From NCBI GenBank assembly GCA_019828565.1, contig JAHDYR010000019.1:55984-119983 (forward strand): a stretch of 64,000 bases of DNA, written 5' to 3'. A program made the translations under genes and the position numbers. Origin of the DNA: Carpediemonas membranifera BICM. Its lineage: Eukaryota; Protista; Fornicata. The notes beneath the pieces were generated by a model. It made no database searches. It was not told the origin of the DNA and saw only the letters and a program-made list of their open reading frames with translations. The stretch's first letter is position 1, and every line of letters starts with the position of its first letter. Below, one piece after another: positions 7,763 through 46,947 of the stretch.

Positions 7763-8361
7763 TGTGCTCCTACTGGAGGAGGGAAAGAACTTTAATAAAG
7801 AGAAAACCCAATGGTTGCAAATATGGTGTAATCTACAAGTCATAAACTATGTAAGTATTGGGTAAGACCCACTACACTGCCCCTTCAGTGCCCAAATGGG
7901 CACGACCTCAAGCGGTGTGACTGTACGGCTAGTGAGGATTTGTCGAAGAGTCAACTGCTTTGTTCACGGTTGCCACGCCGCTCGCGCCGCCGTCCATCTC
8001 ATTGGCAGTGAGATGGGCTATGTCTGACCTTCTAGTCGGTGTCGCTACGCGCACTGACAATGTCTCAAATCTTTTCCTGAGATTCAAATATTTTGTGTGG
8101 TACCACTGGATAAATAGCGCGCTGATGTAAAATGGATCCTTACCGGGGACACTGCCCCTCCACGGCCAGTATAGGCCGTCAAATGAAACAAACCAGTTTG
8201 AAACAATCAAACGGTGCACCTTTGGGTCAAACGACCTTCGGTTTCGTATTTTGCCCAACATGGGGACTTCTTCGCGTTCATTACATAGTACTGTCGAAAT
8301 ATGGCCATTAGAGGCTTCAACGAGGCTTCGTTGTCGAGTTCTGGTGCTTTTTTCTTCACAG
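7763..8361 (-). mobile_element. 3' LTR (7763-7876, 114 bp) and 3' UTR of family D within duplication copy 1
   Basis: Same sequence as 13385-13984. Confidence 0.92.
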
Positions 8362-12621: not shown

Positions 12622-13984
12622 AGCTGCTTAAGCTGAGTTTTGAGGGCGCTCAAGCTCTTCGGCATGGACTCCTTCGTGAGGAAGTCGAAGACTTGTTCTT
12701 CGGAGAGATCTTCGGCTCTCTTGAGGCCGTAATGAATCTCAATCTCCTTTTGAAGGGAATCGCACAGTAGTAGAGCTATCTTGAAGTCAGGATGGCGCGT
12801 CTTAAAGACTCTCACTTCACGCTTGAAGGCACGAACGCGTTTTTGCGTAAGATCCTTTGCTTCGATGCTAGGGAATGAATAATCGATGCTCAAGCTTACC
12901 ATTAAGCAAAGTAATTACTTATGCGGCGGCAAACGGAATTCTCTTTACATAAACTGCACTGACTCGAGCGCCGTCGTGTGTTACCACAACAGCTGCCGCG
13001 TAGCACAGAAGAGATCGCTAGCCTCGAGGAGTCCCACCACACACTGATAGAAGCAGCCCACAACGACGCAGTTGGCCGCCATGGCGTGCGCCGCACACTG
13101 CTGACTCTTCGAGCCGCCGGCCACAAGTGGCCTGGGATGCAAGCTGAGATCAAGAACTTCGTCTCTCAGTGCCTCAGCTGCCAGTTCAAGCGCAAAGCCG
13201 ACACCAAGGTACCCTACCACAGTACTCAGCCCTCGAACCCCTTTGAGGTAATCTTTATTGACGCTCTTGGCCCCCTACCCGAGTCACACGATGGGTCAAA
13301 ATACATCATCGCGGCTGTAGATGGTTTTTAGCAAGCACCTCTCGCTTTTCCTACGGGAACACAGGGGGAGTCCATCCCCGCCGCTGTGCTCCTACTGGAG
13401 GAGGGAAAGAACTTTAATAAAGAGAAAACCCAATGGTTGCAAATATGGTGTAATCTACAAGTCATAAACTATGTAAGTATTGGGTAAGACCCACTACACT
13501 GCCCCCTTCAGTGCCCAAATGGGCACGACCTCAAGCGGTGTGACTGTACGGCTAGTGAGGATTTGTCGAAGAGTCAACTGCTTTGTTCACGGTTGCCACG
13601 CCGCTCGCGCCGCCGTCCATCTCATTGGCAGTGAGATGGGCTATGTCTGACCTTCTAGTCGGTGTCGCTACGCGCACTGACAATGTCTCAAATCTTTTCC
13701 TGAGATTCAAATATTTTGTGTGGTACCACTGGATAAATAGCGCGCTGATGTAAAATGGATCCTTACCGGGGACACTGCCCCTCCACGGCCAGTATAGGCC
13801 GTCAAATGAAACAAACCAGTTTGAAACAATCAAACGGTGCACCTTTGGGTCAAACGACCTTCGGTTTCGTATTTTGCCCAACATGGGGACTTCTTCGCGT
13901 TCATTACATAGTACTGTCGAAATATGGCCATTAGAGGCTTCAACGAGGCTTCGTTGTCGAGTTCTGGTGCTTTTTTCTTCACAG
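12622..13984. repeat. 1.36-kb direct duplication, copy 2 (B gag start, B LTR 12922-12991, C fragment, D LTR)
   Basis: Matches 7001-8361. Confidence 0.95.
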
Positions 13985-14138
13985 CCATTGCCGTCATCTG
14001 GTGCCTGCACCAATAACAATAACAACATCAAAATAGGTAATAAGGGGATAAATGGAGGTTATATGACGTTGTTTGGCAGCATTTTGGGGGAGTTTCGACG
14101 CGGAACTAAATTGTCAGATTTGGCATTTCGCTTTTCGC

Positions 14139-14879
14139 ATGCCAAAAGCGGGGGAAACGGTTTCTGCGTCGTCTATTGCCGATATCCGTTCGCAGCTCAT
14201 GGAGCTTGCTCCCGCTGAGCTTCAGGATCTTCTGGCCACGCTGCCTTCCGCTTCTTCTGCCGCTGCCGCTCCTTCTGGCGCGATCCGTAAGCGCGCTAGC
14301 CGCAAAACGGCCAAAAAGTAAGTAACAACATCAACCTAACGCTGATATAGCGCCACAATCACGACTGCCGTGCGCGAGAAGCTGTTGTCTTCTGTCCCCC
14401 TTGAGGGTTTTGAGTTACCGCCGTTCACCGAGTTCGACGGTGTGCTCACGCCGTTCGTCACTGAGCACGTCAACAACTACGTCAACTGGGTGGACTTCCC
14501 GTTTCAGTCGGTGTTTGACGCCATTGAGACTGGGGGGTTCGCCCAGTTTGACGTCGGTCCTCTGAAAACGCTGGCTCGACAGGTGCGCGACCTGCGCATT
14601 GACCACTCAGTCTTGAAGTCGATCGCGCTCTATTACAAGTTGGGTCCGGCTTCTGATCGTGACATCATGTCCCGCGCCTATGATGGCGACATGAGCATCA
14701 CCGGTACTGGAGCCTCCCATCGTTTGGTCAGCCCCGCACTGATTAAGTACCTCATGGGCGGACGGATTGGCGTCTCCGAGACTGAGCTTCGCTTGTCTCT
14801 CCACCGTCTGACCATTATGACCTTCGCCCCTGCCTACTACCGCCTCGTCGACGGTCTGCTGGAACTTGGCCTTGACTAG
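14139..14879 (+). CDS. Antisense accessory gene of D, C-terminally truncated, with a 33-nt intron 14318-14350 (second copy ~16569-17308)
   Basis: GTAAGT...CTAAC...TAG removal joins ORF 14139-14317 in frame with the ORF at 14370; shares motifs with antisense ORFs of G and H. Confidence 0.8.
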
Positions 14880-15797: not shown

Positions 15798-17304
15798 AGG
15801 CTTGGATTAGATCTAATGTGCTCCTACTGGAGGAGGGAAAGAACTTTAATAAAGAGAAAACCCAATGGTTGCAAATATGGTGTAATCTACAAGTCATAAA
15901 CTATGTAAGTATTGGGTAAGACCCACTACACTGCCCCTTCAGTGCCCAAATGGGCACGACCTCAAGCGGTGTGACTGTACGGCTAGTGAGGATTTGTCGA
16001 AGAGTCAACTGCTTTGTTCACGGTTGCCACGCCGCTCGCGCCGCCGTCCATCTCATTGGCAGTGAGATGGGCTATGTCTGACCTTCTAGTCGGTGTCGCT
16101 ACGCGCACTGACAATGTCTCAAATCTTTTCCTGAGATTCAAATATTTTGTGTGGTACCACTGGATAAATAGCGCGCTGATGTAAAATGGATCCTTACCGG
16201 GGACACTGCCCCTCCACGGCCAGTATAGGCCGTCAAATGAAACAAACCAGTTTGAAACAATCAAACGGTGCACCTTTGGGTCAAACGACCTTCGGTTTCG
16301 TATTTTGCCCAACATGGGGACTTCTTCGCGTTCATTACATAGTACTGTCGAAATATGGCCATTAGAGGCTTCAACGAGGCTTCGTTGTCGAGTTCTGGTG
16401 CTTTTTCTTCACAGCCATTGCCGTCATCTGGTGCCTGCACCAATAACAATAACAACATCAAAATAGGTAATAAGGGGATAAATGTAGGTTATATGACGTT
16501 GTTTGGCAGCATTTTGGGGGAGTTTCGACGCGGAACTAAATTGTCAGATTTGGCATTTCGCTTTTCGCATGCCAAAAGCGGGGAAACGGTTTCTGCGTCG
16601 TCTATTGCCGATATCCGTTCGCAGCTCATGGAGCTTGCTCCCGCTGAGCTTCAGGATCTTCTGGCCACGCTGCCTTCCGCTTCTTCTGCCGCTGCCGCTC
16701 CTTCTGGCGCGATCCGTAAGCGCGCTAGCCGCAAAACGGCCAAAAAGTAAGTAAAAACATCAACCTAACGCTGATATAGCGCCACAATCACGACTGCCGT
16801 GCGCGAGAAGCTGTTGTCTTCTGTCCCCCTTGAGGGTTTTGGAGTTACCGCCGTTCACCGAGTTCGACGGTGTGCTCACGCCGTTCGTCACTGAGCACGT
16901 CAACAACTACGTCAACTGGGTGGACTTCCCGTTTCAGTCGGTGTTTGACGCCATTGAGACTGGGGGTTCGCCCAGTTTGACGTCGGTCCTCTGAAAACGC
17001 TGGCTCGACAGGTGCGCGACCTGCGCATTGACCACTCAGTCTTGAAGTCGATCGCGCTCTATTACAAGTTGGGTCCGGCTTCTGATCGTGACATCATGTC
17101 CCGCGCCTATGATGGCGACATGAGCATCACCGGTACTGGAGCCTCCCATCGTTTGGTCAGCCCCGCACTGATTAAGTACCTCATGGGCGGACGGATTGGC
17201 GTCTCCGAGACTGAGCTTCGCTTGTCTCTCCACCGTCTGACCATTATGACCTTCGCCCCTGCCTACTACCGCCTCGTCGACGGTCTGCTGGAACTTGGCC
17301 TTGA

Positions 17305-25710: not shown

Positions 25711-28700
25711 GCGTGATCGACCAATCTACCCAATTCACCTTGGGGACCACAAGGTCATGGCACTATACGACACTGGAGCCACCGCGAATTTCCTCAGCCT
25801 AGCCCTCGCGAAGTCAATCGGTGTCACGCTCAATCCAGAGCGCCATCGTATCAGGCTAGCCACCGGACAGATTGTTGTGTGCACCCATATCGCGCAACTC
25901 TCAGTCCACTTTCCCTCCGTGACAGGCCACGACCTGACAGCCGATATCAAGTTTATCATCCTCCCAAACCTTGATTTCGACGCCTTCATTGGCTTCCCCA
26001 CGTTACGGAACACAGGCCTTTTCGAGATCCCAGAGGTCTCCGACATCTCCATCCTGGATGACGAGGAGGACATGGAACTGGACGCCATGGCGGAAGAACC
26101 CGATGAGCCGCGGATCGAACTATTTAGAGAAGAGATCCAAAGGCTACTGAAGAAGTACGACGTCACCGGCGACATTTCGTCCCCATCTCTCCTATATCCC
26201 TTCACCATACGCACCAAGGATGCCCAAGTCATCAACCGTTATCCATACAGATACTCCGACTCCGTGATGAAAGAGATTCATCGTCAAACAGACACCCTAG
26301 AGTCTCTACGAGTCCTGGAGCCGTCTGACTCCCCATACAACAACCCTATTGTCATGGCTGGCAAACGCAACGGTGAAGCCAGGATGTGTCTGGACTTTCG
26401 GGAGCTCAACAAGGTCACCCTGGACCTTATACATCCCCTACCATTGATCGATGACCTCGTGTCTCATCTCGAGGGCATGCAGTTTTTCGCTGCCTTGGAC
26501 CTCACAAAAGCATTTCACCAGGTTGAGATTGACCCCCATTCTAGGCCTCTCACAGCTTTTTACAGCTGGAAAGAAAAAAGCTGCAATACTGCTGTATGCC
26601 CTTTGGGCTGAAAAACGCGCCTATTCACATGCAGCGGGCTCTTGAGAAGGCTATGGGTGGTGCACTCTACACTAAGTGCTTGGTCTACATCGATGATATA
26701 GTAGTTTTCGGCCGATCCAAAGAGGAATACCTCGCAAACCTTCAAGATGTGCTGTCTCGCCTTTCCAGGCATGGCCTGAAGCTCAATCTAGCGAAGTCTG
26801 TGTTCTCCGCCACGGAGATAGACTATCTGGGCTGGCACATTGACGCACACGGTAAGCGGGTCTCCTCTGATCGCCTCGACGCCATTAAGGCCCTACGCCC
26901 CGCGACATCTCTCACTGGTCTCCGCGCCCTCATTGGTCTAGCTAACTACTTCCGCGCTCTCCTACCCGACTACGCAACGAGGATGGAACCCCTTATCTCA
27001 CTCACGAGGGCATCCAAGTTTGACTGGGGACAGGAGCAGGACGCTGCCTTAACCTGGATCAAGGACCGCCTCTTGAACGAGGAAGTCCTAGTCCACCCAC
27101 GTCCCGGAGAGGCACTGCATTTATTTACAGACGCTTCTGACGTCGGGATAGGCGGTGTGCTGACCAACTCCGAGGGAAAACCCGTCGCATATTTTGCCAA
27201 GACTCTCTCGTCGACACAAAGACGATGGAGCACTATCGAGAAAGAGTGCTTCGCAATATTCCACGGCATTACGAAGCTTAGGCGCTACCTAGCCGGCATA
27301 GTGTTTGAAATCCACACGGACCACCGCAATTTGACTTACATGCACCACAGTATCAACGCGAAGGTCATGCGCTGGGCCATGGCACTCTCCGAGTACGACT
27401 ACAGCATCAGCCACGTCGCTGGGGTCGATAACGGCGCTGCCGACGCTCTCTCTCGACTATTCACTTTGGACGACGTCCCTGACGAACGTTTCACCACCTT
27501 CCAAGCTCACCACAATGGCTCAGTAGGCCATCTTGGCCGTGACGCCACCTGCCGGAAAATCGCTCAAGCCGGTCTCTCATGGCCCGGCATGAAGTCCGAC
27601 GTCCGTCGGTTCATTGGCGAATGCCCGGTTTGCCAGCTGGTGCGCTCTAAGCGATCCACTATCCCGTCGGAACGCCACTCTCTCATGGGGAGCTATCCCT
27701 TTGAAGTGGTCCAGGCTGACTCGATCGGCCCCATGGACGTCCCCGGGTGCCACTCTTACGGCCTTGTCGTGGTGGACACCTTCTCCCGTTTGACACAGGT
27801 TTATCCCACCACCGATACAACCTCATCCGAGGCTATCCGCGTCCTGTCGTCTTGGAGACAACACTACGGCACCCCTGCCACTCTGATCACTGATGGAGCC
27901 TCGCAGTTCTGTTCTGAGGAGTTCAAGTCCTTCTGCAACCAGTCTAGCATTATTCACAAGGTCGGGACACCCTACCACCCAGCTGGGCAAGGATCCGTAG
28001 AAAGGCAGAATGAGGAGGTTAAGCGCCACCTGCGCGCATATCTCTTGGAGAATGATGGTACGTGGGAGGAGGGTGTGAACCAAATCACATCAATTATCAA
28101 CAACGCCCCTCTCAGCACGTCTCAGCTATCGCCGAACCAGGTTTTATTCGGGAAGGAAGTACCGATACCTGCAGGCTCTCTCTCCATGGAGCTCTTCTAC
28201 TCCACACTCCAGGCTTTGAGGTCCGAACAGCTCAAAATGACCTCCCGGCAATCCCCTACAGCAACGCACGCAGCGGAGCACCTCGTGGGTCAGGGCGTGA
28301 TAGTTCGCAGGAACACTACCGGCCACGTGATCACACGCGGTCCTTGTCGGATCATCCGCAAGGCCGAGCGGCCGAATGTGTACATTGTTCGTGACTTCAC
28401 GCTCAACAAGGACTTCGAAGCTCATGCTGACTCGCTAACTCACTTCAGGGGCACCTACACCGACAAAGAGCTTGCCGACTGGGCCGCCCGTCACCAAGGT
28501 GAGTACCTAGTCCGGTCCATCCTTGCTCACCGGGTCCGAGCTGGACGGCTGCAACTGTCCGTCGCGTATGAGGGGTACGATGACGCCGACTCCACATGGA
28601 ACGAGTTCGATAAGTCTATGGATCAGCTCGAGGCGTTCGACGCGTACCTTGCCGCTCACCCCAGGCTCAAGAAGAACTTAAGACGGTACAAGTGGTGGCT

Positions 28701-28716
28701 TAAGCCATCATCATAG
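25711..28716 (+). CDS. pol: pol of F (PR-RT-RH-INT-chromodomain); frameshift in the A-run near 26570
   Basis: YDTGA, LDLTKAFHQ, MPFGL, YIDD, FTDAS, CPVC, TDGASQF, chromo EYLVRSIL. Confidence 0.94.
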
Positions 28717-30375
28717 CCGCAACATGTCCATACTGCACGTAAATGGACCTCTGTTTCTTCGTTCTCTACCGCTTTCACCGCCACCATCCGGAAACTAACT
28801 AATTTGAACATAACTAAGTAACTGGTGGTGGATACCGCTTCTATACGGCTAACTACTTGATATTGATTACTTATATGGCTCGTCGTTGAGATCTTAGGCG
28901 GCTACGAGCTCGAACGGAGGGAAGAAAGCGAAAATAGCGAGAACTCGCCATTGAGGCCTCGTTGGGCCTTCAAAGGGCCATTTTCGCGCTCTTGTTGGGA
29001 TCGTGCTCATTCAACTGGCATTACTTCCAGCAATAGGAAAACTCGTTGGATGTCGTCATCAATTGATTGCTGACGAGATTTTTGATCCTGATTTCCCCCT
29101 TAGAGCATCCCGAGGGAGCAACTGGGCTCACCATAGCTCAGTGGCGCCCAATTACTGACCATGGGAGGGAAGTGTCGTGGATCTTTAGATCCATGCATAT
29201 ATTTATTCCTGATCTGATTACGATCTGGTCTTGATTTGTCTTTTATTTTTAAACACTTCGCATTGTTCGTTGTTGTTCTACCCCCGCGCGCCTACAACAA
29301 CAGACACGTTCTCGAAGTATACCGAGCTCTATCCCGCACCAGCGAACAACTCAGATGAAGCAGCAAGAGCGTTGTGGCTCGCAGCAGCCCGCCACGGGGT
29401 CCCGCAGACAATACGGTCCGACAACAGCAGTGAATATGTCAACCGCACTGTCAAGAAGTTCCTCGAACAGCTGAACACATACCACCAGAGGACACTACCC
29501 TACCATCCTGAGTCTAACGGCGTAGTAGAGCGTCGAAATGGGGAGGAGGCACGACACCTACGCTGGCTCACACTTACAACACAGCAGTATGACAGCTGGT
29601 CAGACATCCTACCTTATATACAGCACATACTCAACTCTACGACCAACTCAGACACTCTACTGATCCCAAGCGAGATCATATTTGGCCACAGGATTGAGAT
29701 CGGAGGGAGGTGGGAAGAGAGCGAGACGGGCGGCGACGAGCTCCTCACCCCAGCCGACAGAGCGATGCAGCACAGAGACGACCTGACCCGAATGCAGCGT
29801 GACTTAGTCCAACTTTTGAGCGAAGCAGAACTACCATCAGCCCGGGAGTCGGGCCTGAAAGCCGGGGACCTGGTGTTGCTTAATCCAGTCCGGAAGTCAA
29901 AGCTCCACGGTCTGCTAGGCCCGTATAAGGTCGTCAGGACACTGAAGCACAAAACAGTCGAGATCGCCTCGCTGATCAGCGATCAAGTGAAGATTGTCCA
30001 TGAAGACAGACTCATGGTCATCCCCGAGAACCTGGAGCTGGACCGAACACGCCAGCTTCAGGCCACCGACGAGGAGGAGTACGTTGTGGAGGCTATCCTG
30101 GGCCATAACACGAAGAACAAGACACTTCAAGTCAAATGGCTCGACTACACGACGCCGACGTGGGAGCCCTGGCTCAACCTACGACAGGTAGAGCTCGCTC
30201 AGCTGTATGCTCGCGACCATCGACTGCGGTGGGCCACTTCCCCGGGAGGGAGGTAGTGTGTCGCAGGCTCCTTTATATATATCGACCATATTCACCTGAG
30301 AGGGTTTTTTTCTCGTATTAAATAGTTCCGATACAGTCGCCCTGGAGCAGCTCAGTGGTCATGCTGCGAAAGAAG
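28491..30375. repeat. 1.88-kb direct duplication, copy 1 (copy 2 = 36050-37004 + 58008-58936, split by H)
   Basis: Near-identical sequence; the copies flank element G. Confidence 0.95.
29305..30256 (+). CDS. pol: Integrase core + chromodomain of M
   Basis: SDNSSEY, NGVVERRN, GPY, EYVVEAILGH...VKWLDY...TWEP. Confidence 0.92.
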
Positions 30376-30814
30376 TTAAGATATGGGTTCAGGAGCTCCT
30401 GTATAAGTATAAAAAGGACGTACCACAGCCCCGCCCCCTCGCGGGCACTCTGGGGCTCGCGCTCGGCTCGGGAATTCTCGCCCCGAGCATTTTTAGGCAT
30501 TTCGCCATCGCTCATACTGAAAGTTCCGTAGTACGTTAGGCTGATCCGCCCCATTCTTACACAGCGCCCGAAAAAGGGGTTTTGAGGCCCCAATTCGGCT
30601 TCGTTGGCAAGTTCTGGCTCTTTTTTGTTCTGCGCTGCATCGAAACCTAATCAACATCAGTAACACTGCTCCACGGACGACAGAAGTCTCGTGGACTGTG
30701 TTTGAGGTATAAATATTGAGAATGGTCTATCATGGGGATCATTATGGGCACTTCCCATCGTCTTTCGGGAAAAGTGCAGGATATGTCGCTTTTTCCTGAG
30801 AAAAAGCGGCCAAA

Positions 30815-31906
30815 CATGGAGGATACGCGCGCCCTCGATAAGATTCGCGAGCTTTCAGGCGAATTAGCCGATGCTGATTACCGTAAGGTACTCGATAACG
30901 CCTTAGCGACGATCGCTCGTTGTCAGCGTCATAAGGCCCGATCCCTGAGCGCTCTTCGACAGAAGGCTATCCGTAAGCGCTATGGAGATGCGTCGAAGAA
31001 CCCCCTGAAACGGTTTGTGCACCTCCGGTCCTCTTACACAGCTCGATCGTAGTGCCGGCAACTTCCGCCAGAGATCTCTGTCGGGTGCCTGCGGGCGGTG
31101 CCATGCAGGGTTGCTTCACCCACCGCGACCCTCTGCTGTCCGCTGTGGTGCGTGATTGCCTTGCGGGGTATGTCAACTTCGTTGAGGTGCCCCTTGAGGC
31201 CATCTTCGACCATCTATCCACCGGCACGCTCTGGAGCGGGGATGCGGGCGCCCTCCTCGACATCTCGGCCACTCTGCTGGTGCAGCTCCAGAGGGAGCAC
31301 CGCGCCTTGCGCTTTCTCCGTGAGCGCTCCGGCAGCCGGGGTCAGACCGACTCGGACATCGTCCGCGCCGCCATTTCCGCCGGCGTGTTCCACCTGAAGA
31401 GTGACGGTACCTCCAACCAGTACGTCAGCCCCCAGGTCCTGTCAGCGCTCGGCCGTGCACTCGGCTGTGGCTCCAGCATGGCTCGCCAGACCCTCTACCG
31501 CGTGGTCGTCCTGGCTCTCGCGCCGGAGTACTACCGTCTGTTCCTCCACGGCGAGCGCTCCGATCACGTCTCGGTGACCCAAGCCCATTGGGCCGCCCTG
31601 GTAGCCAACCTCCGCCTCATGGACGAGCTCCCATCCCTGCCGCAACGCCTCGGCCTGGCCCTGCAGGTCTCTGACCCTGAGCGTGAGTATGACGTCCTGG
31701 ACGTGTTAGGTCATGAAATCCTGACCGCTGGCCCTGACCGTCGCCTCATCCTACATGTGCAGTACGAGGGCTACACCGCCCCCACGTGCACTGGTCTGGA
31801 CTCAACCCTTGCTGCGGTCACCGTGGTCCGCGAGTACCTGGTGGACTTCGGGCTTGAGGACTGGATCAACGGTCCTGACGACGAATCCGATGACGACTAT
31901 CAATAA
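30815..31906 (+). CDS. Antisense accessory gene of G with C-terminal chromodomain-like module; 29-nt intron 31013-31041 (start codon uncertain, 30732-30815)
   Basis: GTTTGT...TTACACAG removal joins the two ORFs in frame; EYDVLDVLGH...LHVQYEGY chromo-like motif; homologous to D and H antisense ORFs. Confidence 0.8.
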
Positions 31907-31925
31907 ATCTTGACTGAGAATCCGT

Positions 31926-34900
31926 TTACTGCCTGGAGTGCGCAGCACGGTGTAAGCCTCTCTGCTCAAGAAAGTCTTCAAACTTGTCACAGCCATCGAC
32001 ATTCTCGAATGGTTCCCACGACGCCTCGTCTGGCTCATAGCCCTGCCACTCGACCAGGTATTCGCGACTCTCGACCGGACCAGACTCGGGCCGGGACTTC
32101 ACGATCTTGCTCGGTACGTACTCGGCCGCCACTGTGTTAGCCAAGCGAGCAACTTGCTCCAAGGACATGTCGCCGTGATCGAATGGGAGGACCCGGGAGG
32201 CGTCGACTCGGAACTGCTTCAGTGATTCAAGGTCTCGCACAGTATAGGCAACAACTTTGTTGTACTCCTGGTGCACAGACACTAACGCCATTGGGCCACG
32301 CAGCCCGGCGGCGAATTTGTCGGGAGGTCTGTCGGGGTAAGCCACCAGGACGTAGGGAGTCGAGACAGTAGCGCGGGTGTCCGGCCTATACTGTTGTAGT
32401 AACCGCTTGCTCTTAATACGCTCGGCAGCCATGAGCCGGTACGCCTTGGCCTCAGACAGCCAGTCCTCCTGTTGGTCGACGATATATGTCTCGCTCGGCG
32501 CGATGAAGGTGATGTCCTTCGGCACCCGCATCTCGGTACCATACAGGATCTCGGCTGGGGAGAGTCGAGTAGGGACTCGAGGGGTCGAGTTAACAAGGTA
32601 CTGAGCAATCGGTAAGCTGTGGACCCAATCATTGGATCTAAACTGGTAACGACGCGCTGTCAGGATGGACTTCACCGAAACATTCGCTCGCTCAACTAAA
32701 CCATTCGACTGAGGGTGGTGAGCCGTCGTCTTCCTCGTCGTGAACCCGAGTCGGGCACTCAGGTCGTTAAAGACCGCGTTGACGAATTGGGATCCCCCAT
32801 CCGTCTGCAGTACCTTTGGTACGCCATACCGGAGGACCCAGTTATTGACGAACGCCCTAGACGTCTCGACCGCTCGGGTAGTCTGGAGCGGAATCAGCTC
32901 AGTCCAACGTGAGCACATGTCTATGACGACGAGGACATACTTATAGGTCGTACCGTCGACCGTGCACGGGGTGGCGGACATAGTGTCCATGGCCACTCGG
33001 TCGAAGGGATGTTCGACCGCGGTGTGCAAACCCGCGTCGGATGAGGCTGGGGGCTTACGCCTTAACTGGCATATTGGGCACTTGGCGATGTAGTCGTCCA
33101 CATCCTTCTGGCGGACGCGCACGCCCCAGTCTCGAAGAAGGTTCTTGGTCGCCCAGGCGGATAAGTGGGCCCCGGCAAAGTGGTGCGCCTTCTGCAGCTT
33201 GTCCGCGACTTGGGTATCGAGGGTGTTAGCGAACACGCGAGAGAGGCCGTCTGCTGCCCCGTTGTCAACCCCCGGAACGTGACGTATGGTAAAATCGAGG
33301 TCAGCCAGTTGGTCGTACCATCGACGGACCTTGGGGTTGATGGACTTGGCCATGAACAGCAGGTTGCGATGATCAGTACGGATGGTAAAGTGAGTCCACG
33401 AGAGGAATTTCCGCCAACGCTGGACTGCCAGGATGATTGCGTAGGCTTCCTGCTCTGTGGTACTCCACCTAGTCTGGACCGCGGAGAATGCGTGGGACAT
33501 GAAAGCGATCGGCTGCCCGTCCTGTAGTAATACGGCGCCGCATCCCACGTCTGAGGCATCGGTCATGAGGACATGTGTCGCGTCCGTCTTGAAGTGAACG
33601 AGGGAGACCCGCTTAAGGAGCTCGGCGATAACGTCGCCCAGGGCCGCTTGCTGACCCGGCCCACCGGGTTCGGCCTTGCCAGCCGACACCTGCAACAGAG
33701 GATGAGCTCGGGACGCGAAGTTGGGCACGAAGTCACGGAAATAATTGAGGAAACCGACGAGTGCCTGTGCGGACCGCTTGCTGGTCGGTAGTTTCAGCTT
33801 CTTAATGTCGTCAATGCGGTCTTCGGCAATCCTCACGGTGTCTCCGGACACGAGTCGACCCAGGAACTCGACCTCAGCCGCGGCGAAGACACACTTGTCG
33901 CGGCCTAAGTGTAGGTCATACTCTTGGCAGCGTTTCAGGACGTCCCATAGGTTCCTTATGTACGAAGGCTCATCCCGACCCATGACAATAATGTCATCGA
34001 TGTAAATCAGGCACTTGCCCGCCGAGATCAGGTCGGAGAAAGCCTGCTCCATGGCCCACTGGAAATGTGAGCCAGCGTTACGCAGACCGAAGGGCATAGT
34101 CGTGTACTCAAACCGTCCGAGGGGGGTCCCGAAAGCGGTCAGGGGACGGGAACGGTCCGTCAGTGCCACCTGATGGTAGCCTGCCTTACAGTCGAGCGTA
34201 GCAAAGATGGTATTACCCCTAAGCCTAGCAAGGCAATCCTCTATGATCGGGATAGGGTAGTTGAATGGGGGAGTCTTCGCGTTGACCAAACGGAAGTCGA
34301 TAACGAACCGGGTACGGTCCTTCCCCTTTGGGACCAAGAATGCCGGTGAGGAGTAAGCCGATGCTGATGGCTGGATGAAGCCATGCCGGGATAGGTCGTC
34401 AAGGTGTTCCTGGAGAAGTGTCTTCTTCTCCGGCGGCATGAAGAACTCGCGGCTAAAGACGGGTTCATCATCAGACAAGACTAGATCGTAAGGGATGAGC
34501 TTACTCGGACGCCCTACTCTGTCCTCGAACAGGCCGTCAAACCGCGCGAGCAGTCTGTCCTGAAGGGAAGATGACTTGTCAGACAAGGTGAATAGGCTCA
34601 GCTTCTGGGGAGTAATGACCGTTGAGACGTCTTCAGCCTGCTCGGCGTCTTGGGTGTCAGACCCCTCGCAGTCGTCAATCTGTGGGAGGATCCCTAGGGT
34701 GACCATATCAGGGTATCCAATGATTAAATCATACTCTGAGGGTAGAAGATACGCACGGGTAGTGAAGGTGCACCCACGGGGGACAAGAGCTGACTTAGCA
34801 AAGGTTACTTCGATCGGAACAGTCTGGTCGACTGTGATGACTCCAGCCGGTGTCGTCACCTCGACCGGGTCACAATGCAGGATCTTTTCGCCGGACTTCT

Positions 34901-35947
34901 CGGCCACCTGCGGCGATATGAAGGTTGCTGACGCGCCACAGTCGAATAACATCGACTCTGTGCTGGTCCTGTATATAGATCCGGATACAATCGGTAGAGC
35001 CTGCGCCCTGCGTTTGCTAGACGCCGCGAAACAAGACAAATAAGAATAGTTCTGGACCTTTATACGGTCACAGAACTCTCTCTTGTGGCCCTCGCGCCCG
35101 CACTTCTCGCACTTGACCTTGGGCTTCCGGCACTCGGGACTAAAATGGCCCTTGCCCCCGCAGTTGTAGCAGGTCGGCATGGTGCTGGTGGGGCGAGCCC
35201 GATCGCGGGACCGCTTGTCTGGGCGATCTTGGCGGTGGCGGTCATACGGGCGGTCACGACGGTCGTATGGGCGGTCGCGCCGGTCACGGCTGTCCGCACG
35301 TTGGGGTTGGGCGCCTGGCACAGGAGCTGCCGGGCGGCGCGGCTGGTCGGGATGAATGGCCTCAGCGAACGGAGCGAGGTACTCCGCGGACTCGACTACG
35401 TCGCGCGCCGTCTTCATGGCATACTGCTGGGTCTCAGCAAGTGAGCGCCCCTCAGTCTGCTCCTTCAGTCTGAAGTAAAGGGACTGGCCCTTCACGGCGA
35501 ACGCCCGCAAGTATGTGCTTCACGAATAGTGTCGTCCTCGACCAGGTCAAGGCACTCGAACAAGGTGTTGAACTGCGAGTTCAGTCTCGAAACCTCGAGT
35601 GGCGTGAATGCCGCGATGCGGAGCCTGATGAGGTTCAGACATTGCTCCTTCCTGGTGGGACGCAAGGCAGCAGCGAGCCGCTGCATAATAGTCCTCTCTT
35701 TGACCTTGCGTGATGTTGTGGAAGGTTGGTCGCCCTGTTGATCACCCTGAGGAAGCGGGACGTCCTCGAGGGCCTCTAAGCCTAACACCTGGCATACGTA
35801 GGACTGTATCTCCGGACTGATGAGCTTCCGGAGCTTCGCCTTGCCACCTCTGGCCTTGAAGTCACGCAATGATGTAGTAAACGTCACGAAAGCCCTGAAA
35901 GTAGCTTCCTTGAGTAGTGGTGCTTGGTTCTTCCCGTCTCTATCCAT
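31926..35947 (-). CDS. gag-pol: Gag-Pol of G (single frameshift ~35510)
   Basis: Two CCHC knuckles, FDCGA protease, YIDD, MTDAS, CPIC, TDGGSQF, canonical chromodomain EYLVEWQGY...SWEP. Confidence 0.95.
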
Positions 35948-36049
35948 CGGGAAAGTACTAGTACTGTAGTCTTGGAAGAGATAGGTTTTACAAGTAAAAA
36001 GAGGTTTGGACCATCCCGGGGATATTGGTAGATATTAATATTGACTACA

Positions 36050-37004
36050 TCACCAAGGTGAGTACCTAGTCCGGTCCATCCTTGCTCACCGGGTCCGAGC
36101 TGGACGGCTGCAACTGTCCGTCGCGTATGAGGGGTACGATGACGCCGACTCCACATGGAACGAGTTCGATAAGTCTATGGATCAGCTCGAGGCGTTCGAC
36201 GCGTACCTTGCCGCTCACCCCAGGCTCAAGAAGAACTTAAGACGGTACAAGTGGTGGCTTAAGCCATCATCATAGCCGCAACATGTCCATACTGCACGTA
36301 AATGGACCTCTGTTTCTTCGTTCTCTACCGCTTTCACCGCCACCATCCGGAAACTAACTAATTTGAACATAACTAAGTAACTGGTGGTGGATACCGCTTC
36401 TATACGGCTAACTACTTGATATTGATTACTTATATGGCTCGTCGTTGAGATCTTAGGCGGCTACGAGCTCGAACGGAGGGAAGAAAGCGAAAATAGCGAG
36501 AACTCGCCATTGAGGCCTCGTTGGGCCTTCAAAGGGCCATTTTCGCGCTCTTGTTGGGATCGTGCTCATTCAACTGGCATTACTTCCAGCAATAGGAAAA
36601 CTCGTTGGATGTCGTCATCAATTGATTGCTGACGAGATTTTGATCCTGATTTCCCCCTTAGAGCATCCCGAGGGAGCAACTGGGCTCACCATAGCTCAGT
36701 GGCGCCCAATTACTGACCATGGGAGGGAAGTGTCGTGGATCTTTAGATCCATGCATATATTTATTCCTGATCTGATTACGATCTGGTCTTGATTTGTCTT
36801 TTATTTTTAAACACTTCGCATTGTTCGTTGTTGTTCTACCCCCGCGCGCCTACAACAACAGACACGTTCTCGAAGTATACCGAGCTCTATCCCGCACCAG
36901 CGAACAACTCAGATGAAGCAGCAAGAGCGTTGTGGCTCGCAGCAGCCCGCCACGGGGTCCCGCAGACAATACGGTCCGACAACAGCAGTGAATATGTCAA
37001 CCGC
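36050..37004. repeat. Duplication copy 2, left part (F 3' end, F LTR 36731-36857, M integrase)
   Basis: Matches 28491-29446. Confidence 0.95.
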
Positions 37005-37936
37005 TGTAGCCTTATGGCTAGGGAAAGATTGTTTAATATAAGAAAACCCATGATGTGGTGAATATGGTCAATACTATATAAATCTATGAAATGGTAATCC
37101 TATGTAACATTGGGTAAGACCCACTGCACTGCCCCTCCAGTGCCTGCAAGGCACGACCTCAAGCAACGCATATATATGGTCGGCAATAGCCGATGAGGAT
37201 TAGTGAAGTGACAACCGCTTCGAACGTACGAGAGCCACCAAGTACGATCGAAACAGTCTACTCTATTGGCGGTAGAGTAGGCTATGTCTGCCCTTCAGGC
37301 CTTGATCTACGATCTTAGCCAGTATTATGTAAAGATATGGTTGATACTATTATTCGAATCTGTATCTATAAAAATCTTGTGGTACCACTATATAAACGCG
37401 CGCGCTAAGTTAGGTATAGGGTATCTTACATGTCCCTGCCCCTCCACGGCCGGAATACGGCCGTGATTGTGGCGGTTTGGTTCGGCTGTGCATTTTATGG
37501 CACAATGAACCGCGGTTTCGAAAGTTTCACTATACGCGGTATGCAAAGCGCTAGCCAGCGTATAGTTGTCAAAAATGGGGTTTTCAGCCCTCAACGACGC
37601 TTCGTTGGCGAGTTCTCGACGTTTTTTTCTTTTCGGTGCCGAATGAAGGTGCTGCTCTGCGCTACGTGTGTCCTTCATGAATAACAACATCAATACTTAG
37701 TAAAAGCCTTCGTTGCTGCACTGTTTGTGGGATATTGAGGAGTATCTTCACGATTCTCCTCAAGGCTTCATGAGCGTCATCGAATCGACCTCCTGCGCCC
37801 AGGCTCCGGTCATGATCATGGCTGCTATGGTCTGCGGGTTAGTCAGCTAGGTTGCAGTAGTTCCCATAAAGTACGATAATTACGTCAATGCATGTAAATG
37901 CTGCTTTGAAGGATTTCAAAGCAGCCGTTTGAGGAT

Positions 37937-39177
37937 ATGGAGAATTATACCGCCGCAATGAAGGCTATAATCGAGGAACTAAGCGATGACGATGACATTG
38001 CCGCCCTCAATCGCGTCTTCCGCCACGTTATTCGCAAGCGTGCTCGTCGACGCGTTGGATCTACCGCCAACTCCGACAACACGACTAATCAGTCCTCCAT
38101 TGATGCTTCAACAACCGCTACGGGCTCAACAGTCAACGATCAGGAGCGCCAGCCCGATTCCAGCGTGGTTCCGGCAACCGTCGTCGGCGATTCGCGTCCG
38201 TCTCGCCGTGCTAGAGGCAAGCGCCGTATCGGCGTCCGTGATCGAGTTCTCCCGCCGGCAGTCACGGGCGCGGACGTGGTGTTCGAGCCTCCCCGCATTG
38301 ATCGCGCCACACGGCTGCGGGGTGAGCTCGATCACGTCATCTCGACGGTCACGGCGACGTTATCGACATTCTCATCGCATCTAGAGCTGTCAGTGCAGCC
38401 GTTCCTCGATGTGTTGATGAGCGGTGCGCTTAACCAGGCATCGCTGACCTCCGTTCAGCGCCTCGACGGTGGCGTCATCGCTCTGTCTGGGGCAGTCGAT
38501 GACTACTATCTGCTTGTCGGCTTCCGCAAGTACTTCGATCTTGGCTCCGGTGTCAGCGACCGGGAGATCATGAACCAGGTATTCAACGGTCGCCGTGCCG
38601 GCGATATCCGCCGGGAGGTCCTGGATGAGGCGGCACGCCTTCTTGCCGTTGGGGTCGACACGGCACGTAGCCACGTCCGCCGGCTCTATCTTCTTACGCA
38701 TCATGTTCCGTATTATGCAGTGCTACAGCACGCGATCTGGAGCCGGGTGCTGCAGGGCCGGCAGTGCCTGTATCGATTTGCCAATGACTGCTACGCCCTT
38801 GCCTGCGCCGAGGAGCTGCCGACCCTCAGCCTCCCCCCCGGTAGGTACCCCGGTTTCTTCGTCTTACACAGGATATGACCCGCTTTCAGGTCTACGAGCG
38901 CGACCGGTATTATCGCGTGCTGGCTGTGCGTGGTCACTGGTGGCTGTTCGTTGAGCAGGCCTACCGTGGTCGCGCTGGCTCCTTCTTGCTCCTTGTCGCC
39001 TACGACGGGTTCCCTGAAGCAAGTCTGACGCCGGTTAACGCAGACCTTGTCCGCGTGGCTGTGGTCAACCAGTACCTCAGGGCTCATTCCGAGCTCTGGG
39101 ACGTTCTGCCTGAGTCCCTGCAGGTAGAGTTGGAAGAAGTGGTGACCAGTGACGAGGAGTCTGCCGGTGACGAGTAA
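37937..39177 (+). CDS. Antisense accessory gene of H (ORFs 37937-38878 and 38875-39177; probable short intron 38841-38871); chromodomain-like C-terminus
   Basis: IRKR, SDREIM and PYY motifs shared with D and G; YRVLAVRGH...LLVAYDGF aligns with the G chromo-like module. Confidence 0.78.
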
Positions 39178-39239: not shown

Positions 39240-42011
39240 CTATCCGTCTGTATTGTTCGCCAGGAAGATGTCGAGAGCTGCGCAGTCCTTAACGTTCTTA
39301 TATGGTTCCCACGTGGCTTCTTCGTCCTCAAATCCGGCCCAGTGCACGAGGTACTTCTTCTGCGACATGGTACCTGACCCGCGTGCTGCTGAAATGCGGT
39401 CGACCAACCACTCGTCCCTGCTAGTTGCAGCGAGTTGCTGGATCTGGTCGTCAGTTAGTGTACCGGGGTTGAACCTTCGCACTCGTGCGGCATCGACCTT
39501 GATGGTCTTACCATTCGTGGGTGACTCTGCCATGTCTTGGACTTCATATGCCACGGTGACGCCTGATTGCTTGATGCTCTTAACGCGCCTCATCGGGCCT
39601 CTCCACCCTGGTGATAGTTTGTCAGGTGGGCGAGAGGGGTACTTGACCAAGACGTAACGACTCAGGATCTCCGTACGCGACGAGACGGCCTTCGACCACG
39701 CGTCCTCCTTCATCGCTTGGATGCGAGCCTTCGCCAGCTGAATTGCCGCGTCGGCGGCTGCCCGGTGTGACTGCTTGGCGCTCGCTGATGCTTGCTTGGT
39801 AACGTATATTGAGCTAGGCACGGTGAGGTTATATCCCAGGACGATCTCAGCCGGTGATAGGCGGGTTGGGACTCGCGGCGTGGCGTTGATGATAAAGCTC
39901 GCGACAGGCAGGTGATGTATCCAGTTAGAGTCTCTTATGTGGAACTTGCGTGCCTTCAAGATGCGTAACACCTCCTTGTTGGCTCGCTCCACCATCCCGT
40001 TTGACTGTGGATGGTGGGCCGTAGTGATGTGCGTATCAAAGCCCAACTCCTTGGACAACCGTTGGAATAGCTTGTTGTTAAACTCTGGCCCTCCATCGGA
40101 CTGTAACACCTCTGGGCACCCGAAGCGCAGTACCCAGTTGTTGACGAATGCGTCAGCTGCTGCTTCGGCTGTGGTCCCGGAGACGGCAACCAGCTCGGTC
40201 CACCGTGAGCACATGTCGACCATGACCGTAATGTGCGTCATACCGTCCCGCGTTGGGAATGGCCCCATAGTGTCGATCGCTACGCGTTTGAACGGGGTCT
40301 CTACAGCCGTATGTAACCCGGCCACAGTCTGCTCGGGTGGTCGTTCTAGCACTTGGCACGTGGGGCAATGAGAGATGAACTCGTCCACAGCTGAGCGGGA
40401 TACGCTCAACCCGTCGGCTCTCAGTCTGTCGATTGTCTGTCTTCTCGAGAAATGAGCGCCTGCCATCTCGTGTGCCTTCTTAATCTGATCAGTGGTCGCC
40501 TGGGAGCGTACGGTGAAAACTCTCGATAGTCCGTCGGCTCCGGCGTTGTCTAAACCTGCAACATGCTCAATACCGAAGTCTAAGTCGGACAGGGTGTCAG
40601 CCCATCGCTTGACCTTGGCGTTAACGCTCCGGAACATGAACAGGAGGTTCCTGTGGTCGGTCAGGATTGTGAAATGGCCCCAACTGAGGAACTTGCGCCA
40701 GCGTTGCACGGCAGCTATAATGGCGTACGCCTCCTTCTCACTGGTAGACCATCTCGACTGCACCTCATTAAAGGCCTTACTCATATAGCATACTGGCCTA
40801 CCCTCTTGGAGGAGTACTGCACCGTAGCCGAGCCCTGAGGCATCGGTCATAATAGTGTGCTCCTTAGTCGCGTCGAAGATGGCGAGTGCGTCCGCCGATG
40901 TGAGAGCATCCTTGATCTTCTTCAGCGCTGCGTCCTGTTCAGGCTGGCCGATAGGCCTGCGCCCGGCCATTGCCTCAGTCAAGGGGAGGGCGATCTCGGC
41001 GAAACGGTCCACGTGATCTCTGAAATAGTTCAGAAAGCCTACTAAGCCCTGCATCCCACGGACGCTCTTGGGCAACTGGAGCTCTGCAATGTCGGCTACC
41101 CGGTCGGGGGGCGATGTGTTTCTGCCCCTCGGAGATTACCCAACCTAGGAACTCGACCTCGGCACGGCCAAACTGGCACTTCTCCCTATTGAGCTGTAAC
41201 TTTGTCTCGCGTGCGCGAAGGAGGACCTTGCGGAGATTCTGGAGATATTCCTCTTCGCTTGCCCCGAAGATGATGATGTCGTCAATGTATATATAACAGG
41301 CTGTGCCGACCAGCCCCCGGAAGGCGGACTCCATAGCCCGCTGGAAATGGGCTCCAGCATTGCGTAGCCCAAAGGGCATCCGACAGTACTCGTACTGCCC
41401 CAGAGCCGTAGTAAATGCGGTGTACTGGCGGCAGCGCTCGGTCAGCTCGACTTGGTGGTAACCGGCGGAGAGGTCGAGGGTTGCGAAGACCTTCTTCCCC
41501 GCTAGCTGGGAGATAACCTCGTCAATACGAGGTATGGGGTAGTTGAAAGGTTCGGTGATGTCGTTAATTTGTCTGAAGTCAACTACGAATCGGGACTTAC
41601 CCCCTTTCTTGGGTACTGTCATCGCGGGCGAAGCGTAAGGCGATTGACAGGCACGGATAAATCTCTTCGCCAGGAGAGCGTCAATGTGCTCCTTGACGAC
41701 GGCTACCTTCGCCGGGGGGATGTAGTATGGTCGCGCGTTCACGACCCTGTCACTCTTCAGGATCAAGTCGTACGGTTCGAGCTTGCTTGGCTCGTTGCGA
41801 TCTTCGAACACTGCGCTGAACTCCTTGAGAATCTTGGCCTGTGTATCGCTCGTAGTGGGGTTCAACTGGTAGACGGCAGCGTCGAACTTGGCGGGCGACG
41901 GAATGTCCAGCTCGTCGCTACCCTCCTTGTTCCACTCAGCCTGAGGGAGTATACCCAACTCAACCATATGGGGGTACCCTAGGATCAGGTCGAAGTCGGT
42001 GTCGAGTAGAA
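39240..42011 (-). CDS. pol: pol of H (RT-RH-INT-chromodomain), frameshift in a homopolymer run near 41105
   Basis: LDLSAGYHQ, YIDD, MTDAS, CPTC, SDGGPEF, KYLVHWAGF...TWEP. Confidence 0.94.
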
Positions 42012-42486
42012 TCAGTTCACCAATGATTTCAGCAAAGTGGAAACACTTCGATCATGGATGGACAAGGACCAACAGGCCTGGCCTATATGGATAGGGCAGT
42101 GCCCCATGGAGCTCAGAAGGAGCGGCCTTGGCCTCCTGTCTGAACATTCAAGGGTTGCTATCAGGGCATACCGCTGGGCGCGAGTGGGAGCTCCACGCCC
42201 ATACCAAGGAATCAAAGTGTCTTCATGGAACGTATGTTTACAAGGAAAAGGAAAACAACCGTCGAGGGCCAGTGCTAGCACCGGCGGCTACATGGTTTTG
42301 TCAAGACCACAAGGAAGGAAGGGCAGCACAAAAGGGAAACAGGGGCCGTCGATAGAGGCTAAAAAGGAGACTACGAACAAAGCAACAACAACTACACAGA
42401 AAGGCCCCGCTACTCAGAAAAGGGCGACGCATTTTTAGGACCGCGCCTTTTTGAAAGAATGGCCTATATAGTACGGAGCATGGACA

Positions 42487-44828: not shown

Positions 44829-45038
44829 GGGCAGCAAGGGAGGAGGACATCATAACCATGGCCATGCTATACGAGTGGTGGCCCTCGAAGGAGGCTACGG
44901 CTCATCAAGGAGTCTGGGGCTGCGACGACCTAGCAGAGAGCCTCAGGGACTATGAGAAGGTCATAGTCAACGTCAAGGCCCCCAGGAACAGGGGGTAGGA
45001 TCACCCTAGGGGCGAGCTTCATCCCGAGAGACTGGGGC

Positions 45039-45989: not shown

Positions 45990-46321
45990 GGACATGGTAA
46001 AGCAGTATTCTTTCAAGGAACAAGCAACATTTTCTTTATAATTCACAAGCCCTGGCTCCCACCCAGGGCCCGGCATTAGCTGAAACGCACTGCCGGTAGG
46101 CTGTAGCGGCAGCCAAAGGGGGGGTCACGTCATATCGTCCCCCTCCTAAGTACCCTGCCCGAAGAATGGAAGGTCACCAGGTGGTAACAAGGTTGGCCTG
46201 ACAAGGGTCACCGAGACCGGCATCTAGGCCCCTTGTCAGGACAAGGATAGCAGGAGAGGAGCGGGAAGCTGGGGCTCCCAAATTCTGGGAATTCGCAGGA
46301 TAAGGAAACAGGACAAAGGCA

Positions 46322-46947
46322 ATGGTAACCTACAAGATACTTAGTCTGAACACAGAGGGACACATAGGAAGAGGAAAGGACTTCACGGCGTCTATGGCAA
46401 CGGCGATTCAGCTAAGGTTGAAGGACATAGAGGCAGTACTCATACAAGAGACATGGAGAACGGCGAATACGAGGGTTCATTGCTTCATGGACCTTGACTA
46501 CGCACTAGCAGGGAGGGAGACGGAAGAGGACCTGGTCTTAGCCAACGAAAAACGAAAGGCGGATGTCAAAAGTCAGCACCGCATCAACCGACAACTAGGC
46601 ATAGCAGGCAATGACGAACCTGCGCCAAGATGGAAGGGAACAAGGGAAGGCATCGGCACGATAGTGAGCCCACACGCAACTGCAAAGTGGGACATCGGCA
46701 TATCGGACAGCCTATCGGGAAGAGTGCAAGCCAGCATAATGAGAACCGGCAGGGACATACTAGTCATCAACGTGTATGGCCCTCCATCCGGCCACAGCAA
46801 GCAGGAGAAGGATGGATTCAGGGACACTATACAGAAGATCATGGACATGAAAGGGAGCATGGAGGCCATAATTATGGGAGACTGGAACATCGACCCAGGC
46901 CAGATGGAAAGATCCACCCGGTGGAAGGATATGATGGAGAAGCACAG
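46322..46947 (+). CDS. APE-type endonuclease of LINE ORF2, N-part (interrupted by J)
   Basis: ILSLN, LIQETW, INVYGP, IIMGDWN. Confidence 0.9.

What the first reader, a model, noticed from the sequence alone, without database searches (positions are those of the whole stretch)
37571..37628. Conserved ~60-bp quasi-palindromic motif in 3' regions of four divergent LTR families
Seen: consensus about AAAATGG..TTT.AGGCC.CAACGAGGCTTCGTTGGCGAGTTCT.G...TTTT at D (8296-8353, 13919-13976, ~16350-16405), G (30570-30626), H (37571-37628) and, reverse-complemented, F (28931-28984; copy 36490-36543). The orientation relative to the element is always the same. The core is a near-palindromic 16-mer CAACGAGG/CYTCGTTG, and AACATCA follows ~30-55 nt later in D, G and H. 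It lies ~160-310 nt upstream of the antisense ATG, yet F keeps it without any antisense ORF. Inference: a binding site or promoter, possibly for the antisense chromo-like protein with F using it in trans, or a packaging signal replacing the missing 5' leader.
Basis: partly seen in the sequence, partly recalled or inferred. Interest (0 to 1): 0.72.

Follow-up and report, generated by a model that had tools for sequence, protein, structure and literature searches.

The report
Helically phased motif in protist retrotransposons
Four distantly related jumping genes of a free-living protist share a 56-letter DNA motif set in a 400-letter stretch whose A/T and G/C runs repeat once per helical turn, which likely positions nucleosomes at a backwards-facing promoter inside each element.

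Summary
The motif is real. Seven sites reduce to four independent Ty3/Gypsy families (D, G, H, F), in the same orientation, between pol and the 3' LTR. The host is most likely Carpediemonas membranifera. The copies align without gaps at 67-76% identity against 24-46% in the flanks, although the F integrase is only 31% identical to G's.

The motif is the core of a ~10.0-bp WW/SS helical periodicity. That periodicity continues in phase with the motif centre for about ±200 bp through largely dissimilar flanks in all four families (0 of 1000 shuffles). The 13 most periodic 147-bp windows of the 64 kb all lie in these regions.

An RNA packaging signal is not supported: there is no covariation, and elements with equally short leaders lack the motif. 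Best reading (inferred, 0.5): a host-read DNA anchor for positioned nucleosomes at an internal antisense promoter. It would drive a spliced chromo-like gene in D/G/H and perhaps a non-coding antisense RNA in F. No chromatin or transcription-start data were available, and only four families could be examined.

The parts
37571..37626 (+). Motif, family H copy (dyad centre 37599/37600)
30570..30625 (+). Motif, family G copy
13920..13975 (+). Motif, family D copy (non-autonomous tandem element)
16351..16405 (+). Motif, second tandem D unit (duplicate)
8297..8352 (+). Motif, D copy in duplicated segment, cut 9 nt downstream by element K
28930..28985 (-). Motif, family F copy
36489..36544 (-). Motif, duplicate of the F copy
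37400..37800 (.). H: ~10.0-bp WW/SS periodic tract in phase with the motif centre; a further periodic block at 37891-38037
30400..30867 (.). G: periodic tract; most periodic 147-bp window of the 64 kb at 30721-30867
13750..14177 (.). D: periodic tract
28651..29172 (.). F: periodic tract spanning pol end to 3' LTR
30783..31906 (+). G antisense gene, two exons (predicted intron ~31014-31042), C-terminal chromo-like segment; multi-copy in C. membranifera annotation
37937..39177 (+). H antisense ORFs (313 aa + 100 aa; the latter matches the G C-terminus)
14140..14621 (+). D antisense gene remnant (short exon, predicted intron ~14320-14352, exon 2 resembling G by eye, truncated)
37376..37470 (+). 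Second D/H shared block upstream of the motif: TATA-like run, PPT-like GCCCCTCC, 8-bp hairpin (D 8104-8180 and copies)
36599..36610 (-). Ends of two putative cDNA contigs of one sample, one carrying a 5' adaptor: possible antisense RNA 5' end 84-95 nt before the F dyad (weak)
37005..37128 (-). H 3' LTR (5' LTR 57880-58007); LTR edge 471 nt from the dyad

Best explanation
The motif is a gap-free 56-bp element shared by four LTR retrotransposon families at the centre of a ~400-bp tract with 10.0-bp WW/SS periodicity, and it likely anchors rotationally positioned nucleosomes at an internal antisense promoter. SHOWN: conservation, orientation, phasing in core and flanks, and a spliced antisense gene model downstream in D/G/H. 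INFERRED: (1) the periodicity reflects DNA wrapping on histones. SS steps lie at the centre and WW steps near ±5, ±15 and ±25, over a length close to the H3-H4 tetramer footprint (geometry recalled). (2) The invariant letters (CAA, GC.TC..TG.C.AGTTCT, flanking A and T runs) are read by a conserved host factor that fixes the register of two or three wraps, with best-fit centres near -139, -21 and +88 to +160. (3) This architecture keeps an antisense transcription unit active inside a repeat nest, producing the chromo-like accessory protein in D/G/H and a non-coding antisense RNA over the pol end in F. Whether the motif lies in the +1 nucleosome (RNA start near -95, F hint) or just upstream of the start (Inr-like AACATCA at +55 to +87) is unresolved.
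For: Gap-free 67-76% identity against 24-46% in flanks, across families with 31% integrase identity and F outside the G/H clade. All four cores rank in the top 0.4% of window positions for phase score with the centre fixed at the palindrome. The 13 top-ranked of 25 listed 147-bp windows (8 distinct sequences) are all in D/F/G/H 3' regions. Region z = 3.5-6.4 against -1.5 to 2.1 in 13 control regions. Flanks alone (core ±32 masked) peak at 9.9-9.95 bp in phase with the core: 0 of 2000 random placements, and 0 of 1000 dinucleotide shuffles at ±130 and ±180. The signal holds without D or without H (0-4 of 1000) and with ±73 masked (0 of 1000). It also persists against a synonymous-codon null in G exon 1 (5 of 1000). 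The antisense gene is multi-copy with a spliced model. One adaptor-marked cDNA end is antisense to F. Precedents: 10-bp WW at +1/-1 nucleosomes of promoters (PMC7706728, abstract); 10.1- and 120.9-nt periodicities starting at transcript 5' ends in Trichomonas and ~132 nt in Giardia (PMC2577358, passages). The AA-TT skew here peaks at 110-120 nt (no null run).
Against: There are no chromatin data and no mapped transcription starts. The RNA hint is one contig end from one sample whose RNA status is a tool guess, and the same adaptor also ends a contig inside an unrelated coding-like repeat. Periodicity is centred about 20 bp left of the palindrome, so the dyad is not simply the nucleosome dyad. 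Flank phasing is weak at ±100 (31-293 of 1000 in 6 subsets), and the -200..+260 range was chosen after viewing the profile. Wrap spacings of 110-120 bp are shorter than a canonical nucleosome. W/S-preserving substitutions are only marginally enriched (11 of 23 vs 72 of 275, p = 0.049; 1 of 4 single controls significant). F has no antisense ORF over 51 aa between motif and pol. n = 4 families, two of them (D, H) related in the left flank.
Confidence: 0.5

Rival explanations
1. The motif is the target of the element-encoded antisense (chromo-like) protein, a VANC-like anti-silencing or targeting system, with F using the protein in trans; the phased flanks help the protein wrap or spread.
For: The motif sits 185-340 nt upstream of the antisense gene in 3 of 4 families, has dyad symmetry (22-28 of 56 self-matches against a null mean of 14), and the non-autonomous D keeps it. 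Precedent: VANDAL/VANC (PMC5735166, search listing only).
Against: The DNA is equally conserved between all family pairs while the antisense proteins are barely alignable outside the C-terminus. The protein has no Pfam or PDB match and no recognisable DNA-binding domain.
Confidence: 0.15
2. The tract is a PATC-like mechanical element: phased A/T runs bend DNA, disturb ordinary nucleosome packing and insulate the element against silencing, rather than positioning nucleosomes at a promoter.
For: The AA/TT-only signal is periodic in core and flanks (0 of 2000). The elements lie in a 59-kb repeat nest. PATC-like periodicity is reported in Helitron-derived DNA and L1 (bioRxiv 10.64898/2026.08.08.743475, abstract and section 13).
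Against: The coherent peak is at 9.9-10.0 bp rather than the ~10.5 bp of free DNA (free-DNA value recalled). SS steps contribute too. PATCs are described there as extended elements rather than short motifs, whereas this tract is locked to a conserved 56-bp sequence.
Confidence: 0.12
3. The motif and its phased tract are a nucleation site for centromeric histone (CenpA) particles, so the elements seed or mark centromere-like chromatin.
For: Dense nest of chromodomain-bearing LTR elements. Tetramer-sized dyad. Short 110-120 bp spacing. The host has a CenpA candidate but lacks CenpC and many kinetochore parts (PMC8516963, passages). AA/TT 10-bp periodicity positions CENH3 on maize CentC (PMC3053214, abstract).
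Against: Nothing shows this window is centromeric. The CENP-B box core is absent from the motif. Maize CRM retrotransposons lack the AA/TT periodicity (PMC3053214, abstract). The fixed position upstream of an antisense gene is explained more simply by a promoter.
Confidence: 0.08
4. The motif is an RNA signal on the sense genomic RNA (packaging or dimerisation hairpin) replacing the missing 5' leader.
For: 5' leaders are ~12-25 nt. 20 of 24 cells of the central hairpin pair. The F copy folds better than shuffles (z -2.5 and -2.9).
Against: 0 of 6 pairs show two-sided change and 3 of 6 depart only by mispairs. RNAalifold covariation terms are unfavourable on both strands (+0.19, +1.38). There are no indels. 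The loop is self-complementary only in F. No pairing over 9 nt with the element's own 5' end. B, E and J lack the motif with equally short leaders. A 10.0-bp phase in the flanks is a DNA property.
Confidence: 0.07
5. Residual homology or a recently exchanged fragment with no function.
For: D and H share further 3' sequence by descent; F, J, G and H group together in RT and RNase H trees.
Against: Identity falls to background at both edges, is equal among all pairs, and is tied to phased flanks of unrelated sequence.
Confidence: 0.03

Closest known systems
[quoted passage not shown]
   Same: Gypsy elements with a long pol-3'LTR spacer carrying antisense accessory genes of likely regulatory role.
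   Different: Here the lineage is chromodomain-bearing with 70-130 nt LTRs. The antisense gene is spliced and chromo-like with no TRP28 hit. The spacer holds a single conserved dyad with phased flanks rather than tandem arrays.
10-bp WW periodic +1/-1 nucleosomes of C. elegans germline and ubiquitous promoters (PMC7706728, abstract)
   Same: 10-bp WW periodicity at a presumed promoter.
   Different: That signal is statistical across many promoters. Here it is visible in single copies, is locked to a conserved 56-bp sequence, and lies inside a retrotransposon.
Trichomonas 120.9-nt and Giardia ~132-nt transcript-anchored periodicities (PMC2577358, passages); Giardia nucleosome with 125 bp visible DNA (PMC8421212, passages)
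   Same: Metamonad relatives; 10.1-nt period plus a 110-130 nt unit tied to transcript 5' ends.
   Different: Those are genome averages over host genes; no sequence motif anchors them.
PATCs and PATC-like signatures in Helitrons and L1 (bioRxiv 10.64898/2026.08.08.743475, abstract and section 13; PMC4947018, listing)
   Same: Transposon-borne ~10-bp A/T periodicity proposed to counter silencing.
   Different: This tract is short (~400 bp), ~50% GC, includes phased SS steps and has a conserved dyad core.
VANDAL/VANC sequence-specific anti-silencing (PMC5735166, listing)
   Same: A transposon accessory gene next to a non-coding cis motif.
   Different: DNA transposons. Their motifs are short and family-specific (recalled), whereas this one is shared across very divergent families.
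CENP-B box and CENH3-positioning satellites (CentC; PMC3053214, abstract)
   Same: A 9-nt resemblance (CTTCGTTGG; box sequence recalled) and 10-bp AA/TT phasing.
   Different: The essential CENP-B core pattern does not match the motif; not a tandem satellite.

Membership tests
Ty3/Gypsy chromovirus-like LTR retrotransposon (host elements) | PR-RT-RH-IN order with C-terminal chromodomain, LTRs, PPT | tested here: met
   Pfam hits for G, H, F; LTR pairs for D, F, H; D is a gag-only derivative; G lacks its 3' LTR
Nucleosome-positioning sequence | ~10-bp WW/SS anti-phased periodicity over 100-150 bp | tested here: met
Nucleosome-positioning sequence | Signal symmetric about the motif dyad | tested here: not met
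   Best-fit centres -11 to -51, sum -21
Nucleosome-positioning sequence | Positioned histone particle in vivo or in vitro | not testable with these tools
   Needs MNase-seq or reconstitution
Internal antisense promoter | Antisense gene downstream | tested here: met
   3 of 4 families; F has none
Internal antisense promoter | Mapped antisense transcription start near the motif | tested here: inconclusive
   One adaptor-marked contig end in F, one sample
Structured RNA packaging/dimer signal | Conserved structure with compensatory changes | tested here: not met
   (only 4 sequences)
Known RNA family (Rfam, tRNA) | Covariance-model match | tested here: not met
   0 Rfam hits at E<=1; 0 tRNA
CENP-B box | Core TTCG....A..CGGG (recalled) | tested here: not met
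   13 one-mismatch hits against 15.7 expected, none at the motif
cPPT/central termination sequence | A-tract terminator downstream of an internal PPT on the sense strand (recalled) | tested here: not met
   The motif lies upstream of the internal PPT-like site in the sense direction in D and H
VANC-like cis target | Bound by the element-encoded protein | not testable with these tools
   Needs EMSA or ChIP
Generic host promoter element | Present upstream of host genes | tested here: inconclusive
   Absent at the single host gene in the window; no whole genome available
PATC | Extended phased An/Tn clusters that bend DNA and disrupt nucleosomes | tested here: inconclusive
   AA/TT phasing present; curvature and PATC score not computed

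The most novel reading that the evidence does not exclude
The 56-bp dyad is a sequence-encoded loading site for a histone (CenpA or H3-H4) tetramer that nucleates a phase-locked, short-spaced (~115-bp) particle array. It would let these retrotransposons carry their own centromere-like or silencing-proof chromatin seed in a protist that lacks CenpC and much of the kinetochore.
Probability: 0.08. Interest if true: 0.88.

Novelty: new variant of a known kind. Interest (0 to 1): 0.56.

Why it matters
Non-coding sequence in retrotransposons usually loses all similarity long before integrases fall to ~30% identity, so a gap-free 56-bp element kept across such families points to a conserved reader, probably a host one. 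Its coupling to a single-copy-visible, phase-locked helical signal makes it a natural nucleosome-positioning element and a ready probe for promoter and chromatin rules in fornicates, whose chromosome machinery is highly reduced. In 10 full-text searches of the held library (four aimed at this combination) I found no description of Carpediemonas LTR elements with this motif. Subscription journals and repeat databases were not searchable.

Tried and rejected
No whole genome was held, so inside-versus-outside counts could not be made.

Exact degenerate scans found 0 hits in metagenome contigs and 0 in viral contigs. The 5 hits in genome contigs score 27 bits or less (3 of 5 above 10); 2 of 5 were read and lie in a bacterial glmM-like ORF, so they are taken as chance.

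Protein-led locus searches found none in viral contigs and 15 of 131 candidates in metagenomes at 24-39% identity. 0 of 15 carry the motif (best 15.8 bits), and the three closest have no pol-LTR spacer.

Sequencing runs: no listed holder is on record as RNA. G and H were not covered and D was not covered; this is no evidence either way.

Rfam, tRNA, CENP-B box, cPPT/CTS, hammerhead-like and motif-to-PBS pairing ideas were rejected (by inspection).

The single-sequence AlphaFold model of the spliced antisense protein was unusable (pLDDT 36). The ESM Atlas gave no usable hit. The representative-protein search never ran because the queue was full. The chromo-like call rests on a weak profile match (HHalign probability 38%, E 3e-4).

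The first PWM had D and F off register by one base and was redone.

Four look-ups of earlier findings returned nothing. bioRxiv supplements were closed and none were read.

Full report
SETTING. The first 59 kb of the window is a nest of Ty3/Gypsy elements with very short LTRs (70-130 nt), a LINE-like insert, and one CEP76-like host gene at 60197-62998. The closest named relatives of H pol, and a protein identical to G pol over the aligned part, are labelled Carpediemonas membranifera. The host is therefore most likely that free-living fornicate (inference). No whole genome was available.

OBSERVATION. The core pattern matches at 7 places (13 strand-matches; chance mean 1.2; 0 of 100 shuffles). 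Duplications reduce these to four independent families, D, G, H and F. Anchored on the core, the copies align without a gap. Identity is 0.67-0.76 over 58 columns against 0.29-0.46 upstream and 0.24-0.32 downstream, and 0 of 200 shuffles reach the score in each of 6 pairs. 29 of 56 columns are invariant. Leave-one-out scores are 46-52 bits against 11-14 elsewhere. The spacers of E and K lack the motif, and A, B, C and J have almost no spacer. Orientation is constant relative to pol. The palindrome is perfect only in D and H.

DEPTH OF CONSERVATION. G and H form a clade (55% integrase identity). F is 31% identical to G and falls outside that clade on a long branch. RT and RNase H trees group F, J, G and H (98-99 support, long branches). 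The motif is thus either ancestral to that group and lost in J, or was exchanged long ago. Its equal divergence in all pairs argues against recent transfer.

NOT A CONSERVED RNA STRUCTURE. Folding z-scores are -2.9 to +0.65, and only the two F strands are below -2. Consensus folds have unfavourable covariation terms on both strands. The central hairpin has 0 of 6 pairs with two-sided change. Rfam and ARAGORN give nothing. With four sequences this test is weak, but B, E and J have equally short leaders and no motif, which removes the argument for a substitute packaging signal.

THE PROPERTY THAT WAS MISSED. Within the motif, WW steps fall near -26, -17, -6, +6, +14 and +24, with SS steps between them and at the centre. 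Each copy is in the top 0.4% of window positions for this phase. An unanchored scan of 147-bp windows ranks 13 windows from the D/F/G/H 3' regions first (8 distinct sequences). The four regions have z 3.5-6.4 against dinucleotide shuffles, and 13 control regions have -1.5 to 2.1. With the core masked, the flanks, unrelated in sequence except for the D/H left side, still peak at 9.9-9.95 bp in phase with the core: 0 of 2000 random placements, and 0 of 1000 shuffles at ±130 and ±180. This holds on dropping D or H (0-4 of 1000) and on masking ±73 (0 of 1000). It is weak at ±100 (31-293 of 1000). The signal persists against a synonymous-codon null in G exon 1 (5 of 1000). A matched filter puts best centres at -21, +88, +159 and -139 in the sum, with -138 to -140 found separately in D, H and F. 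AA-versus-TT skew peaks at 110-120 nt (no null). W/S-preserving substitutions are marginally enriched (p = 0.049).

THE ANTISENSE UNIT. Downstream of the motif, G carries a two-exon gene. A 364-aa public model at another locus joins the two ORFs, and the family has at least 6 members in two clusters. D keeps a truncated version with a short GT-AG intron (likeness to G judged by eye). H has two ORFs, the second matching the G C-terminus (34% over 65 aa), which weakly resembles the pol chromodomain. F has no such ORF. Two contigs of one sample cover the F motif and stop at 36610 and 36599. One ends in a string published as a 5' RNA adaptor (PMC3025573 and PMC4176332, passages). This would place an antisense RNA 5' end 95 nt before the dyad. 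It is one contig, the RNA label is a guess, and the adaptor also ends a contig inside an unrelated repeat, so it is a hint only.

MECHANISM. The most economical reading is a DNA element read on both strands: a sequence-specific anchor of tetramer-footprint size (geometry recalled) that sets the rotational register of two or three histone wraps at an internal antisense promoter. Conservation, phasing and gene context are shown. Rivals are an element-protein target (0.15), a PATC-like insulator (0.12), a CenpA seed (0.08), an RNA signal (0.07) and no function (0.03).

COMPARISON. Antisense genes in pol-3'LTR spacers are known (Retand; PMC11963269, passages). So are 10-bp WW promoters (PMC7706728, abstract), transcript-anchored periodicities in metamonads (PMC2577358, passages), a 125-bp visible wrap in Giardia (PMC8421212, passages), AA/TT phasing on CentC but not on CRM elements (PMC3053214, abstract), and transposon-borne periodic insulators (bioRxiv 10.64898/2026.08.08.743475, abstract and section 13). 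It is not a CENP-B box. The combination of a conserved dyad with a phase-locked tract inside LTR elements did not appear in my searches. No copy was found outside the window: 0 of 15 distant metagenomic relatives carry it.

VERDICT. A real feature under selection, better described as a helically phased DNA element than as a palindrome. It is a new variant of known kinds; interest 0.56.

Noticed in passing
window 7288-7299 (B), 18235-18246 (D), 57869-57880 (H), 35954-35965 (G), 20225-20238 (F), 25603-25614 (E); L001 2782, L002 184, L003 2835: A perfect 12-14 bp palindrome occupies the primer-binding position at the 5' LTR end in 6 of 7 elements examined (J has only 8 bp) and in three metagenomic relatives (CAGAAATTTCTG); gag starts ~12-25 nt later. 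Only 15 of 2133 30-nt windows hold such a palindrome. This suggests a tRNA-independent, possibly intermolecular priming mode and may deserve its own follow-up.
   Followed up: partly
window 30376-36049 (G) and 8362-12621 (K): Two one-ended elements, each with a single LTR, lie between large direct duplications of the target (about 1.9 kb: 28491-30375 = 36050-37004 + 58003-58936; 1363 bp: 7001-8361 = 12622-13984). Aberrant one-ended integration, recombination or assembly artefact.
   Followed up: no
window 13385-18364 (D) and 46946-54913 (J): Tandem elements sharing a middle LTR, >99.6% identical; D is a 2.4-kb gag-only non-autonomous derivative related to H.
   Followed up: no
window 37376-37470 and 8104-8180: Second D/H conserved block: GTGGTACCAC palindrome, TATA-like run, an internal copy of the PPT-like sequence and a G+C hairpin; could be a relic PPT/LTR duplication or upstream promoter elements.
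   Followed up: partly
window 21187-21620 (E 3' spacer): B-box/T-loop-like GGGTTCGAGTCCC near 21308 followed by a T run, not called as tRNA; the region also shows a weaker 10.0-bp period (z 2.0) without the motif.
   Followed up: no
window 30783-31906, 37937-39177, 14140-14621: Spliced antisense accessory gene of no known family with a C-terminal chromo-like segment, inside an LTR retrotransposon; multi-copy in public annotation.
   Followed up: partly
window ~42000-46945 and 54914-56600: Purine-rich LINE-like insert with an endonuclease ORF (46322-46990) inside H pol, itself interrupted by the J tandem; 18360-18553 resembles 56111-56302 at 80%.
   Followed up: no
window 60197-62998: Intronless-looking 933-aa host ORF with EF-hand, C2 and CEP76-like domains; one relative at 54%.
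   Followed up: no
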